From Gekko japonicus (Eukaryota): DNA of 64,000 bases. This document shows, piece by piece, positions 19,601-22,600 of this stretch (within the stretch, counting starts at the first letter, position 1; every line of letters starts with the position of its first letter). Location of the stretch: the NCBI RefSeq assembly GCF_001447785.1, contig NW_015172565.1, positions 347,947 to 411,946 on the forward strand. Reading direction: 5' to 3'. A program made the position numbers.

Positions 19601-22600
19601 GTCCTTAATGGCTTCAAAAAGTGCACCTTATGTAGAAGAGGAAAAAAATCTTGTTTGTATGGCTTAGTCTCACAGCTAGTTACTCCATTAAGCTAAAGCA
19701 AAGGGCAAATCTGCTAGAACACAAGGTGGCTAAAGTTCACAGGTAAGCTGCTCTGCTAGTGCTGGACCTCAGCAGTTGCATTGTTCGGAGTTAGAGGTGA
19801 CTTTCCTACTAATTTATCCTGTCCTTCCCTATTCCATGATAATGACTCACAGGTTCCCAACCTTATTGTTAGAAAAGATATACATATTGTATGTTTTGAT
19901 ATGCTAATTTAAGTTGTATAAATTGGAGGCTATGATGAATCATCTAAAAAACTTTAACTGGGTGACAGCAGTAGCAAAAAAAAATACATAGAATGTTTAT
20001 TTAAAGCAAAAAAAAAAATCCCTATGAAATTAACACCCATACTTGAAGAATTATAACTCAAAACTTTCTTCCAGAATTTATACTTCAGTTAGTTTAATGT
20101 TGTTGTTGTTCAGTCGCACAGTTGAGTCTGACTCTTCGCAACCCCATGGACCACATCACGCCAGGCCCTTCTGTCTTCCGTCATCCTCTGGAGTTTGCTT
20201 AATTTCATGTTCATTGCATCGATAACACTGTCTAACCATCTCATCCTTTGCCATCCCCTTCTTTGACCATCAATCTTTCCCAGCATCAGGGTCTTCTCCA
20301 GTGAGTGCTCCCTTCTCATTTGGCGGCCAAAGTATTTGAGGTTCAGCTTCAGTATCTGGCCTTCCAGGGAACAGTCAGGGCCACTAGTTCACGGATTCCC
20401 AAGATGTCAATGTTCAGTCTTGTCATCTCATTTTTGACCATATCCAACTTACCTTAATAAATCTTACATTCCAGGTTCCTTTGCAGTATTGTTCTTTGCA
20501 GCATCGGACTTTCCTTTCACCATCAGACACATCCAAAGCTGAGTGTCCTTAATGGCTTTGGCCCAGCCGCTTCACTCTTTCTGGGGCTACTTGTACTTGC
20601 CCTCTGCTCTTCCCCAGTAACATATTGGACACCTTCCGACCTAAGGGGCTCATCTTCTGGCGTCCTATCTTTTAGCTTTTTGTTACTGTCCATGGGGTTT
20701 TCTTGGAGTGGGTTGCCATTTCCTTCTCCAGTGGATCACGTTTTGTCTGATGTTTTCTCTAGACTAATACCTTAGATTGCATCTTTGTAAATTTTGAACA
20801 ATACATTTGGGAGAATAGTAACATTTGCATGAATATAGTGCTGTTCTAATAAGATGGCTGTTCTAAGATAAAACTTACTACCATTTGTAGTATAAAACCT
20901 TGGAAATACATTTGCTGGCTAGAAAAAATTGTTAAAACAATCAGCTTGATGTTTCCCTTCTCTGTGTAGAGTACTGTCAAGTTGCAGCCAACTTAGGGTG
21001 ACCCCATAGGGTTTTCAAGGCAAGAGCCGCTCAAGGCTTTCTTGGTGCTTTCCCATCCAAATACTGACCAGGGCCAACCCTGCTTAGCTTCTGCGATTGG
21101 GCTAGTCTGGGCCACCCAGTTCAGGGTATGTTTCCTTTACTTTTAATTAAACTGGAGCAATTCCTAAATTTGGCACAGCTGTCATCCTTCCTCCTTTTCA
21201 TTTTGATATAGATGGCTATTATGCTGGTGTCCCTGCTCCAATGTTTTGCCCTGAAGAAAGGAGGGGGAGCCCAGAACAGCCTCTCATATTTTTTAAATAG
21301 AAGGCCAAGAGCAGGAGAGTTAGCATTAAAGGGGCTGAACTACATGCAGGAAATCCAAAATGTATTTGTCCTTTCCCCCCCTTTTCTTAGCAAACTACAG
21401 CGGGGGGGGGGGGGGTTAACCATTTTCCTAGTGTGATCTTCAGCCAGATGAAAAATATAATTTTGTTTAGGAAACAAAAAACCCACAACCCACTCTGTCC
21501 TTGGGCTTTGATGCTCATACAGAGACGTTTTAGTTGTTGTTGTTGTTTTGGGGGGGGGAGAAAAAACAGCAGATCTGGTCCCAGGTCTTGCACATAAGGG
21601 TGGCTTCAGCCTAAAGCATCGCCAGCTTTGGAAGGAAGCTACTGCCAACAAGCTTTTTGCGCACCGATGGATTCGTGGTGGTTTCCCTGTACATCGCCTT
21701 AGCCCTAAGCGGCCAGGCGTCTCGTACATATAGATGTTATTTCACAGGTGAAGCCTCTGACAGTATACCCACCTTGTCTACTCTGACCCTATACTTAAGT
21801 TAGCGTGCTGTTGGAGAAGGGGAAGACGCTAATCAGCCTTGCCAACATGAAGGCTGCTGGACGAAGGAAGGGTCCATGGCGGAGCGGCTCTTCATACGGA
21901 AATTACCCTCAGCCGCGCGGCTTTCTTGGAAAACTCGTTCAGTGGTCGTCGCTCGACCTAAAGCGCCGCCGTTGACGAGAGGCCCGCAAAGTGCCAGAGA
22001 CGACAAAGCTAGTGCCGGTGTAGAAACTCCACTTTCCCCACACGCCGCTACCTGCTGGCGCAGTTTCTCGAAATACTCTTTTAAGACCCTGGGCCACTGT
22101 TGCTTTATAAACCTCAGGGTCTTCCAGGTTGAGAATCCGAACCTTAGGAGTACTGGCGAGGTGGTTTTTACTAACCCCGAAAGTGAGGACCTGACAGCAA
22201 TGGAAATTGGGAGCTGTAGTTCCTGGACCCTCTCGGCGGGAAAGGAGATTGAAGAGTTTTTAGACGACTTCGTTGTCTGCGACGGCGTCAAATATAATTT
22301 TGTCTGAGAAAGAGGTTCAATTAAACTGCTAATTTCAGGCGAGGGGGCTACAATCACAGGGTTACATGACAGAACAGGTCCACAATTATAATGATCTTGA
22401 GGAATTCTTAAAAGACATGCCAAGAACACTTTTAATCTCCACTGGGGGGACGGACTCTGTTATTGCCATATGTAAAACAGAAGGGAGCGACTTCTAAATT
22501 AACCTTCTCATCAGTTTGTTAAATTTGATTTGCAAGTTATGCTAATTTGCTAATATTTTTTTACTCCTCCCTCCACACACTGGTGAGGGGATGTGATCTT

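What the first reader, a model, noticed from the sequence alone, without database searches (positions are those of the whole stretch)
21560..22330. Ghost NUP205 promoter: ATG-less exon 1 copy that kept its CpGs, ZNF143/E2F sites and splice donor
Seen: ATG changed to AAA and a 1-nt deletion, yet the GTATGA donor (21897-21892), ZNF143 and E2F motifs and high CpG density persist despite substantial divergence from copy A; a TTTATAAA lies near 22104. Inference: CpG retention suggests the region is unmethylated in the germline and may still initiate minus-strand RNA. That RNA would run antisense across POLR3H or splice into NUP205; alternatively the region may act as an enhancer or loop anchor for CNOT4.
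Basis: partly seen in the sequence, partly recalled or inferred. Interest (0 to 1): 0.72.

Follow-up and report, generated by a model that had tools for sequence, protein, structure and literature searches.

The report
Dead NUP205 promoter copy, still CpG-rich
A decayed duplicate of a nuclear-pore gene's promoter and first exon sits between two other genes in what looks like a reptile genome, and it still has the sequence marks of an unmethylated promoter, a tidy example of an orphan CpG island.

Summary
Window 21882-22279 (minus strand) is an old, decayed copy of the NUP205 core promoter and first exon. The live copy lies at 6328-6725 on the same strand.

- **Homology:** only two collinear blocks still align (71-75% identity). 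Each finds the live copy as its best match in the whole window.
- **Decay:** the start codon now reads AAA, one exon base is lost, and the donor keeps only its intron half.
- **What persists:** a ZNF143/THAP11-type motif and a TTTCCCGCC (E2F-type) site are intact. CpG o/e is 0.92 (flanks 0.14-0.30), with no TpG/CpA excess.
- **Simulation:** mutating the live copy with CpG hypermutability never reached the ghost's CpG count (0 of 300 runs per setting).

New here: the duplication is larger. The CpG island upstream of POLR3H (8095-8364) is paralogous to the one upstream of CNOT4 (26354-26632). The whole NUP205-CNOT4 divergent promoter module therefore seems to have been duplicated around the POLR3H body. 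The ghost is the dead NUP205 half of copy 2.

Long-term germline hypomethylation is well supported by sequence. Transcription, splicing into NUP205, and enhancer or loop roles are untested. It is an orphan CpG island of known kind, of moderate interest. I do not take the window for human.

The parts
21640..22300 (-). Ghost CpG island: 661 bp, GC 0.519, 41 CpG, CpG o/e 0.92, TpG+CpA o/e 0.87
   Evidence: 5 of 1267 windows of 661 bp reach o/e 0.92
21882..21955 (-). Relic of NUP205 exon 1. The codon aligned with ATG reads AAA (21924-21922). The coding-equivalent stretch is 21924-21898. The last exon base is deleted.
21892..21897 (-). Retained intron half of the donor (GTATGA). The exon side is TCC instead of CAG, giving 4 of 9 to a recalled consensus against 7 of 9 for the live donor.
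21956..22149 (-). Spacer. Not alignable with copy A but almost the same length (195 against 191 bp) and still CpG-rich (o/e 0.87).
22150..22279 (-). Relic of the NUP205 core promoter, 71% identical to 6581-6725
22197..22220 (-). SBS2-type ZNF143/THAP11 motif. Its 5' part, ACTACAGCTCCCA, is at 22208-22220.
   Evidence: motif definition from passages of PMC3627581
22235..22243 (-). TTTCCCGCC, an E2F-type site (consensus recalled), identical to the one in copy A
22104..22111 (.). Palindromic TTTATAAA, present only in the ghost. Count in the window is at chance level.
22044..22058 (-). CTCF-like site, 14 of 15 to a recalled consensus. Not above chance.
6328..6725 (-). Copy A, the live NUP205 core promoter and exon 1: ATG 6367-6365, donor 6339-6334, SBS2 6627-6650, TTTCCCGCC 6674-6682
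   Evidence: exon 2 confirmed
8095..8364 (+). Block in the CpG island upstream of the POLR3H ATG exon. It is paralogous to 26354-26632. The only GTRAGT donor-like site of this island is at 8080.
26354..26632 (+). Matching block in the CpG island upstream of the CNOT4 ATG exon. The only GTRAGT donor-like site is at 26317. An SBS2 5' motif lies at 25976-25988 (+).
10818..17101 (+). POLR3H coding body between the two module copies. The ATG exon is 10818-10952, preceded by an acceptor, so an upstream non-coding exon is needed. Last coding exon about 17048-17101.

Best explanation
**Shown**
- Window 21882-22279 (minus strand) is a decayed paralogue of the NUP205 core promoter and first exon.
- It belongs to a duplicated NUP205-CNOT4 divergent promoter module with three collinear same-strand blocks: exon 1, the core promoter, and the CNOT4-side CpG island.
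- Copy 1 spans 6328-8364. Copy 2 spans 21882-26632. The POLR3H coding body lies between them.
- In copy 1 the NUP205 side stayed live. In copy 2 it lost the start codon, one exon base and the exon half of its donor.

**Inferred from position only**
- The CNOT4-side island of copy 1 now supplies the non-coding first exon and promoter of POLR3H.
- The island of copy 2 serves CNOT4.

**Inferred from sequence statistics**
- The relic has stayed unmethylated in the germline for most of the time since the duplication.

**Proposed mechanism (not shown)**
- The intact SBS2 (ZNF143/THAP11) and E2F-type sites still recruit their factors.
- This keeps the island free of methylation and promoter-like.
- The island then fires non-coding, probably short-lived transcripts, mainly on the minus strand towards the 3' end of POLR3H.
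- That makes it an orphan CpG-island promoter about 3.8 kb upstream of the CNOT4 promoter.
For: **Homology**
- Two ghost blocks find copy A as their best hit among 174 tiles each.
- 0 of 300 shuffles reach either score.
- The third block, 8095-8364 against 26354-26632, has 180 identical of 248 ungapped columns.
- It scores 31 against a shuffle mean of 13.8, sd 1.4, over 60 shuffles.
- It is the reciprocal best hit among 172 tiles, 31 against next 17 and 15.
- Controls against the island at 38.5-39.5 kb give z of -1.0 and -0.4.
- All three blocks are 71-75% identical, which fits a single event.

**Age**
- The spacer is at shuffle level.
- The repeat insertions inside the two copies are not shared. 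Those at 7151-7298 and 24963-25139 lie in opposite orientation.
- Copies of that repeat family are 85-89% identical to each other, and the SINE copies 94-95%.

**Hypomethylation**
- Ghost CpG o/e is 0.92 and TpG+CpA o/e 0.87. The live copy A has 0.87 and 1.0.
- Flanks have CpG o/e 0.14-0.30 and TpG+CpA o/e 1.15-1.27.
- The unalignable spacer itself has CpG o/e 0.87.
- Simulation from copy A: with a CpG-transition factor of 5, 10 or 15, 0 of 300 runs reach the ghost's 27 CpG at either divergence tested.
- With factor 1, 39 of 300 runs reach it and mean o/e is 0.94.

**Motifs**
- Literature pattern ACTACANNTCCCA: 3 hits against 0.03 expected.
- TTTCCCGCC: 2 hits against 0.21 expected.
- All 19 specified bases of the two motifs are kept. 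The chance is 0.0015-0.004 if the ghost kept bases at the 71-75% seen in the blocks.

**No coding rival**
- 0 Pfam families for the 4 ORFs over the ghost.

**Literature**
- SBS sites are enriched in bidirectional promoters and ZNF143 acts bidirectionally (PMC3082894, abstract and passages).
- ZNF143 stimulates initiation (PMC11754675, abstract).
- Many orphan CpG islands initiate transcription (PMC2944787, abstract).
- Factor binding or transcription is thought necessary for the methylation-free state (PMC5927659, section 6).
- Lizard non-methylated islands have mammal-like CpG o/e at lower GC (PMC3583005, passages).
Against: - No methylation, accessibility, transcript or factor-binding data were available. 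Every functional step is inference.
- Long et al. (PMC3583005) warn that sequence-based CpG-island calls predict non-methylated DNA poorly in cold-blooded vertebrates.
- The motif-retention probability is post hoc. It assumes the exon and promoter blocks decayed neutrally in the ghost.
- My 24-base SBS pattern was written after seeing both copies.
- The degenerate E2F pattern TTTSSCGC is not enriched in the window: 3 hits against 2.73 expected.
- The simulation uses copy A as a stand-in ancestor and recalled rate ratios.
- The donor is weakened.
- GC skew gives no direction signal: +0.06 in both copies.
- The TATA-like and CTCF-like sites are at chance level.
- No cross-species comparison was possible, so selection on the ghost is not shown.
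- A shared genome-wide GC-rich repeat behind the similarity of the two islands cannot be excluded from one window.
- The roles of the two large islands as POLR3H and CNOT4 promoters rest on position alone.
Confidence: 0.6

Rival explanations
1. Inert relic. The copy is functionless, and its CpG richness is a passive by-product, for example of lying near the unmethylated CNOT4 promoter, of only recent silencing, or of biased gene conversion. No factor binding or transcription matters.
For: Coding function is gone and the donor is weakened. No functional data exist. The window holds other CpG-rich stretches that are merely young repeats, such as SINE copies with o/e 0.85-0.98. Sequence-based island calls are unreliable in cold-blooded vertebrates (PMC3583005).
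Against: The ghost is a separate island. Non-repeat DNA between it and the CNOT4-side island is CpG-depleted (o/e 0.30 and 0.25) with TpG/CpA excess. Unlike the SINEs it is old, since its spacer is at shuffle level. With CpG hypermutability, 0 of 300 simulated runs per setting keep its CpG count. All 19 specified motif bases are kept.
Confidence: 0.2
2. Regulatory element for CNOT4 (or POLR3H). The island works as a distal orphan CpG island that boosts or tethers the CNOT4 promoter 3.8 kb away. Any RNA made is incidental.
For: The ghost lies 3.8 kb upstream of the SBS2 motif in the CNOT4-side island, which carries the same motif pair on the plus strand (25976-25988 and 26205-26212). It has island character. 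A CTCF-like site lies at 22044-22058.
Against: The CTCF-like site is at chance level: 2 hits against 0.41 expected, and 6 of 100 shuffles give 2 or more. ZNF143 is reported to have no general looping function (10.1101/2024.03.08.583987, abstract; 10.1101/2024.03.08.583864, title and first lines). No contact or reporter data exist.
Confidence: 0.12
3. Alternative non-coding first exon of NUP205. Transcripts start at the ghost and splice from 21898 to the exon 2 acceptor near 4372.
For: The strand is the same as NUP205. GTATGA is kept at the homologous place. There is no minus-strand poly(A) hexamer for about 750 nt below the donor, the first being at 21147.
Against: The exon side of the donor is lost, 4 of 9 against 7 of 9. 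The intron would be 17.5 kb. It would cross POLR3H antisense and ten poly(A) hexamers between 21147 and 16369, and then the live promoter. The exon has no ATG, and exon 2 as translated shows no methionine to restart from.
Confidence: 0.06
4. Not a duplication. Two unrelated promoters look alike because both use ZNF143 and E2F sites.
For: These motifs are common in housekeeping promoters (PMC3082894). Default blastn found no match.
Against: The exon-1 block is not a factor motif, yet it matches codon for codon at the same distance (about 280 bp) from the SBS in both copies. It is the best hit among 174 tiles. A third collinear block exists.
Confidence: 0.02

Closest known systems
Orphan CpG islands (Illingworth et al. 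2010, PMC2944787; abstract read)
   Same: A CpG island away from any protein-coding start, with promoter-type sequence features. Many such islands initiate transcription.
   Different: Its origin is traceable here: a dead paralogue of a known housekeeping promoter and first exon. Its methylation and activity are unmeasured. The organism is a non-mammal.
Unprocessed partial pseudogene (5' gene fragment left by a segmental duplication)
   Same: It is homologous to the parent promoter and exon 1. The start codon and reading phase are lost. No downstream exons are present.
   Different: Ordinary pseudogene fragments are expected to lose their CpGs. This one has as high a CpG o/e as the live copy, 0.92 against 0.87.
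ZNF143/THAP11 SBS2-type, often bidirectional, CpG-island promoters (PMC3627581, PMC3082894; passages read)
   Same: Exact ACTACANNTCCCA core followed by an SBS-like 3' half, with an E2F-type site about 15 bp upstream. This is the same layout as the live NUP205 promoter.
   Different: There is no gene to drive. The partner promoter (CNOT4) is about 3.8 kb away, beyond the <1 kb definition of a bidirectional promoter. Binding is untested.
Co-option of CpG islands as promoters by relocated genes or retrogenes (Sarda and Hannenhalli 2017, PMC5927659; abstract and section 6 read)
   Same: POLR3H's ATG exon needs an upstream exon. The only island upstream is a paralogue of the CNOT4-side island.
   Different: POLR3H here has introns, so it is not a retrogene. 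The co-opted island would come from the same duplication that made the ghost. This rests on position only.
Promoter upstream / upstream antisense transcripts of divergent CpG-island promoters (recalled, no paper read)
   Same: Predicted short non-coding RNA from a promoter-like island.
   Different: Here the initiating element is a former genic promoter and not the back side of a live one.

Membership tests
CpG island by sequence criteria (recalled: >=200 bp, GC >=0.5, o/e >=0.6) | Length, GC content and CpG observed/expected | tested here: met
   21640-22300: 661 bp, GC 0.519, o/e 0.92
Non-methylated island / orphan CpG island | DNA experimentally unmethylated (Bio-CAP, bisulfite) | not testable with these tools
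   Indirect only: no TpG/CpA excess and the simulation
Non-methylated island / orphan CpG island | Not at the start of a protein-coding gene | tested here: met
   ATG replaced by AAA. 0 Pfam families for 4 overlapping ORFs. No annotation was available to consult.
Partial unprocessed pseudogene of NUP205 | Significant homology to parental promoter and exon 1, in order and orientation | tested here: met
Partial unprocessed pseudogene of NUP205 | Disabling changes | tested here: met
   Start codon lost, 1-nt deletion at the exon end, exon-side donor consensus lost
Partial unprocessed pseudogene of NUP205 | Remaining exons absent (partial copy) | tested here: met
   No exon 2 relic: best score 40 against 39.5 elsewhere, and the match is only an AT-rich tract
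SBS2-type ZNF143/THAP11 promoter | ACTACANNTCCCA followed by the SBS 3' half | tested here: met
   22197-22220, 0 mismatches. Motif definition from PMC3627581.
SBS2-type ZNF143/THAP11 promoter | Factor occupancy and a transcription start nearby | not testable with these tools
   No ChIP or CAGE data reachable
Bidirectional promoter (PMC3082894 definition: <1 kb between opposed starts) | Distance to the opposed promoter below 1 kb | tested here: not met
   Ghost SBS2 at 22197-22220 against the CNOT4-side SBS2 motif at 25976: about 3.8 kb. Start sites themselves are unknown.
CTCF loop anchor | CTCF core motif above chance | tested here: inconclusive
   One 14-of-15 match at 22044-22058. The window has 2 such matches against 0.41 expected, and 6 of 100 shuffles give 2 or more. 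The consensus is recalled.
Alternative first exon of NUP205 | Competent donor | tested here: inconclusive
   GTATGA kept, but 4 of 9 to a recalled consensus against 7 of 9 for the live donor. No junction data.

The most novel reading that the evidence does not exclude
One ancestral divergent promoter pair, duplicated, now runs three housekeeping genes. NUP205 and CNOT4 run from their own halves. POLR3H runs from a captured CNOT4-type first exon. The leftover NUP205 half is kept unmethylated by its ZNF143/THAP11-E2F core because its convergent antisense transcription into the 3' end of POLR3H tunes POLR3H (or CNOT4) output. On this reading a dead promoter is retained as a regulator.
Probability: 0.12. 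Interest if true: 0.6.

Novelty: new member of a known kind. Interest (0 to 1): 0.4.

Why it matters
**A natural experiment on CpG islands.** The same promoter exists twice in one genome, once with a gene and once without, and the geneless copy has kept its CpGs and its two factor sites. If germline methylation and CAGE data confirm that the relic is unmethylated and firing, factor sites alone would be shown to preserve an island over a long time. If it proves methylated, sequence-based inference of long-term hypomethylation would be shown to fail.

**Gene relocation.** The wider duplication offers a concrete, testable case of a housekeeping gene (POLR3H) taking its promoter from a copy of a neighbour's non-coding first exon.

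**Limit.** None of this opens a long-standing question. It is a clean example of known phenomena.

Tried and rejected
- **Default blastn.** Word 9, E<=1e-3, 21001-23000 against the window: only SINE matches, no copy A. Homology needed sensitive alignment.
- **Relic of NUP205 exon 2 near 19.97-20.0 kb.** Only an AT-rich acceptor tract matched, 40 against 39.5 elsewhere. Rejected.
- **Relics of the CNOT4 or POLR3H ATG exons elsewhere in the window.** None above background.
- **Homology of the upstream parts of the two large islands** (7700-8094 against 25800-26353). Not above background in the tile scan, and the global alignment is unconvincing. A possible SBS counterpart in the 8-kb island was dropped.
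- **Looser gap penalties.** They stretch the island block to 8012-8430 against 26284-26690, but with 120 gapped columns of 468. The two GTGAGT donors are not put in register, so donor homology is not claimed.
- **7-mer diagonal count.** Matches on the ghost/copy-A diagonal cluster only at 21899-22265.
- **GC skew as a direction signal.** +0.06 in both copies, uninformative.
- **Coding potential.** 0 Pfam families for 4 ORFs over the ghost.
- **CTCF-like and TATA-like sites.** At chance level.
- **Degenerate E2F pattern TTTSSCGC.** Not enriched, 3 hits against 2.73 expected.
- **YY1-type site at the live ATG, destroyed in the ghost.** This is a recalled resemblance only. Searches for a printed motif gave one unrelated paper and no passage. 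No claim is made.
- **Literature.** 0 papers hold NUP205, POLR3H and CNOT4 together. 0 papers hold 'partial gene duplication', 'promoter', 'first exon' and 'CpG island' together. NUP205 does not occur in the main text of PMC3082894.
- **Rfam at gathering score.** Only one tRNA, far from the ghost.
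Full report
**Source and limits**

The window has no N. I do not take it for human, for three reasons.
- The NUP205 exon 2 translation differs from the human chain at about 11 of 48 exon-encoded residues in the printed alignment.
- The POLR3H exon differs from the human chain and carries a two-residue insertion.
- The repeats are not Alu-like.

From memory, and untested, the repeats resemble squamate SINEs, and the gene order differs from the human one. No vertebrate genome collection was available. 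Cross-species conservation, expression and methylation therefore stayed unchecked. Exons were searched one at a time.

**Gene map**

- *NUP205* runs on the minus strand.
  - Exon 2 lies in ORF 4184-4417 and matches human NUP205 residues 6-59 (E 7e-24).
  - Exon 1 has its ATG at 6367-6365 and donor GTATGA at 6339-6334.
- *POLR3H* runs on the plus strand.
  - Residues 1-37 are at 10842-10952 (E 2.6e-17).
  - They are preceded by a pyrimidine tract and an acceptor AG at 10816-10817, so a non-coding exon must lie upstream.
  - Further exons lie in the ORFs at 12117-12365, 13577-13708, 14786-14896 and 16328-16618.
  - The last coding exon ends near 17101. Plus-strand poly(A) hexamers follow at 18175 and 19165.
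- *CNOT4* runs on the plus strand.
  - Its ATG (RING) exon lies in ORF 53021-53359 (E 5.8e-39).
  - The next exon, recognised by eye and not searched, lies in ORF 63566-63829.
- *CpG islands* lie at about 6.1-6.4, 7.7-8.4, 21.6-22.3, 25.8-26.9 and 38.6-39.4 kb.

The ghost therefore sits 4.8 kb past the POLR3H stop codon and about 3.8 kb before the island that most probably holds the CNOT4 start.

On the minus strand the ghost aligns with the live NUP205 5' end in two blocks.
- The core-promoter block has 91 identical of 128 ungapped columns.
- The exon-1 block is 75% identical over 48.
- The blocks are collinear. The spacers are 195 and 191 bp.
- Each block finds the live copy as its best match among 174 tiles covering both strands of the window: 33 against next 24, and 36 against next 24.
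- 0 of 300 dinucleotide shuffles reach either score.

The spacer, the intron side and the upstream side show nothing above background. A 7-mer diagonal count places the homology at 21899-22265 only.

Codon by codon, the ghost reads AAA where the live copy has ATG, and it lacks the exon's last base. GTATGA is kept at 21897-21892. The three exon-side bases changed, so the site matches a recalled donor consensus at 4 of 9 positions against 7 of 9 for the live donor.

**Motifs**

- ACTACANNTCCCA is described as the THAP11 site and the 5' part of the 25-bp ZNF143 SBS2 motif (PMC3627581, passages).
  - It occurs three times in the window against 0.03 expected: in the live promoter, in the ghost, and on the plus strand in the CNOT4-side island.
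- TTTCCCGCC occurs twice, in the live promoter and the ghost, against 0.21 expected.
- The looser E2F-type pattern TTTSSCGC is not enriched, with 3 hits against 2.73 expected.
- All 19 specified bases of the two motifs are unchanged between the copies.
  - If the ghost kept bases at the 71-75% seen across the blocks, the chance is 0.0015-0.004.
  - This is a post hoc figure.
- The TTTATAAA at 22104-22111 is absent from the live copy. Such sites occur at the expected rate in the window.
- A CTCF-like site at 22044-22058 is not above chance.

**CpG content**

- The island 21640-22300 has CpG o/e 0.92 and TpG+CpA o/e 0.87. The live copy has 0.87 and 1.0.
- Flanks have CpG o/e 0.14-0.30 with TpG+CpA o/e 1.15-1.27.
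- Only 5 of 1267 windows of 661 bp reach 0.92.
- The part of the ghost that no longer aligns with anything still has o/e 0.87. That is what a long-standing unmethylated island would show, and not what a young copy would show.
- The non-repeat DNA between the ghost and the CNOT4-side island is CpG-poor (0.30 and 0.25), so the ghost is an island of its own.

I also ran a simple simulation that mutates the live 398-bp span until non-CpG sites differ by 15% or 27%.
- With CpG transitions 5, 10 or 15 times faster, 0 of 300 runs reached the ghost's 27 CpG at either divergence.
- Without hypermutability, 39 of 300 runs reached it at 27% divergence, with mean o/e 0.94.
- The simulated o/e at factors 10-15 (0.15-0.30) matches the flanks.

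Long et al. report that lizard non-methylated islands have mammal-like CpG o/e at lower GC. They also report that sequence-based island calls are poor predictors in cold-blooded vertebrates (PMC3583005, passages). The inference is strong but indirect.

A sensitive blastn of 18-27.5 kb against 3-11.5 kb gave a third same-strand match, 26354-26632 against 8095-8364 (E 6e-7).
- It has 180 identical of 248 ungapped columns.
- Its score of 31 compares with a shuffle mean of 13.8, sd 1.4, over 60 shuffles.
- It is the reciprocal best hit among 172 tiles, 31 against next 17 and 15.
- Control comparisons of the 8-kb island with the island at 38.5-39.5 kb gave z of -1.0 and -0.4.
- The 26-kb island against that control gave z 4.7 on one strand, probably from simple sequence.

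The order is the same in both places: exon-1 block, promoter block, island block. All three blocks are 71-75% identical.

The unit that was copied therefore looks like the whole NUP205-CNOT4 divergent promoter region. Copy 1 is 6328-8364 and copy 2 is 21882-26632. Copy 2 is about 2.7 kb longer, and about 0.75 kb of that is visible repeat insertion. The POLR3H body lies between the copies.

The repeat insertions inside the two copies are not shared. The copies at 7151-7298 and 24963-25139 lie in opposite orientation. Members of that family are 85-89% identical, so the duplication is older than those insertions.

Each large island has a single GTRAGT donor-like site on the plus strand, at 8080 and 26317, just before the matching block. 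No other island lies before the POLR3H ATG exon. So POLR3H probably starts in a copy of the CNOT4-side island. This rests on position only.

**Best reading**

The ghost is the dead NUP205 half of module copy 2. The structural part I hold as near certain. Long-term germline hypomethylation I hold as likely.

The mechanism I commit to is this.
- The retained SBS2 and E2F-type sites still bind their factors and keep the island methylation-free and promoter-like.
- The island then produces non-coding RNA, mainly on the minus strand towards the 3' end of POLR3H.

The reading draws on these reports.
- ZNF143 sites are over-represented in bidirectional promoters and act in both directions (PMC3082894).
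- ZNF143 stimulates initiation (PMC11754675, abstract).
- Many orphan islands initiate transcription (PMC2944787, abstract).
- Factor binding or transcription is thought necessary to keep islands unmethylated (PMC5927659, section 6).

Within this window the SBS2 motif points the way the gene runs in both live promoters, which is why I favour the minus strand. On that strand the first poly(A) hexamer below the donor is at 21147, about 750 nt away. Donor-like sites lie at 21909 and 21775.

**Rivals**

- An inert relic is hard to square with the CpG data, but it cannot be excluded without methylation data.
- A CNOT4-directed regulatory role is possible.
  - Its loop-anchor form is weakened by two degron studies that report no general looping role for ZNF143.
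  - I read the abstract of one and only the title and first lines of the other.
- Use as an alternative NUP205 first exon is unlikely, given the weakened donor and the 17.5-kb path through POLR3H and the live promoter.
- Chance resemblance of two unrelated promoters is close to excluded by the exon block and the third block.

**Novelty**

I found no paper holding the three gene names together. None matched 'partial gene duplication' with 'promoter', 'first exon' and 'CpG island'. These are narrow searches of an open-access library only.

The thing itself belongs to known kinds: an orphan CpG island, and a partial unprocessed pseudogene. What is unusual is that the island's origin is traceable, and that the two halves of the duplicated module met reciprocal fates. 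I score it as a new member of a known kind, of moderate interest.

Noticed in passing
window 8095-8364 and 26354-26632 (+); POLR3H ATG exon 10818-10952: The CpG island upstream of POLR3H is paralogous to the one upstream of CNOT4. POLR3H's ATG exon begins at an acceptor. POLR3H may therefore use a first exon and promoter copied from CNOT4. POLR3H lying between NUP205 and CNOT4 differs from the human arrangement as I recall it.
   Followed up: partly
window 25976-25988 and 26205-26212 (+): The CNOT4-side island carries the same motif pair as the NUP205 promoter (ACTACAATTCCCA and TTTCCCGC), pointing towards CNOT4.
   Followed up: no
window 31619-31690 (-): A tRNA-like gene called tRNA-Ala with anticodon GGC, at 66.8 bits in Rfam and also found by ARAGORN. 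It lies in the presumed first intron of CNOT4. It could be a true tRNA gene or a repeat head.
   Followed up: no
window 34907-37117 (-) and 37319-37942 (+): An open 736-aa reverse-transcriptase ORF (RVT_1, E 1.6e-35) and a second, weaker reverse-transcriptase fragment beside it. These are retroelements in the presumed CNOT4 intron 1.
   Followed up: partly
window 57267-60676 (+): Three long overlapping or adjacent ORFs (711, 229 and 254 aa) in CpG-rich DNA (o/e >=0.8) with no Pfam match at E<=0.01. From memory the last one resembles the start of a DIRS-like reverse transcriptase. It is probably a retroelement between the two CNOT4 coding exons.
   Followed up: partly
window 22625-22912, 10164-10451 (-), 23820-24047; also 7151-7298, 9182-9358, 20098-20268, 24963-25139: Two repeat families. 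One is a CpG-rich SINE-like element with copies 94-95% identical. The other is an older element with copies 85-89% identical. None of the insertions is shared between the two module copies.
   Followed up: partly
window 38600-39400: A further CpG island (GC up to 0.68) inside repeat-rich DNA between the 26-kb island and the CNOT4 ATG exon. It could be a repeat 5' end or an alternative CNOT4 start.
   Followed up: no
window 7440-7680: Long poly-G/poly-C runs and a (CA)n microsatellite between the live NUP205 promoter and the 8-kb island.
   Followed up: no
window 6355-6375 against 21912-21932 (-): The sequence around the live ATG looks, from memory, like a YY1-type site. The ghost's change of ATG to AAA would destroy its core. 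No printed motif could be found to test this.
   Followed up: partly
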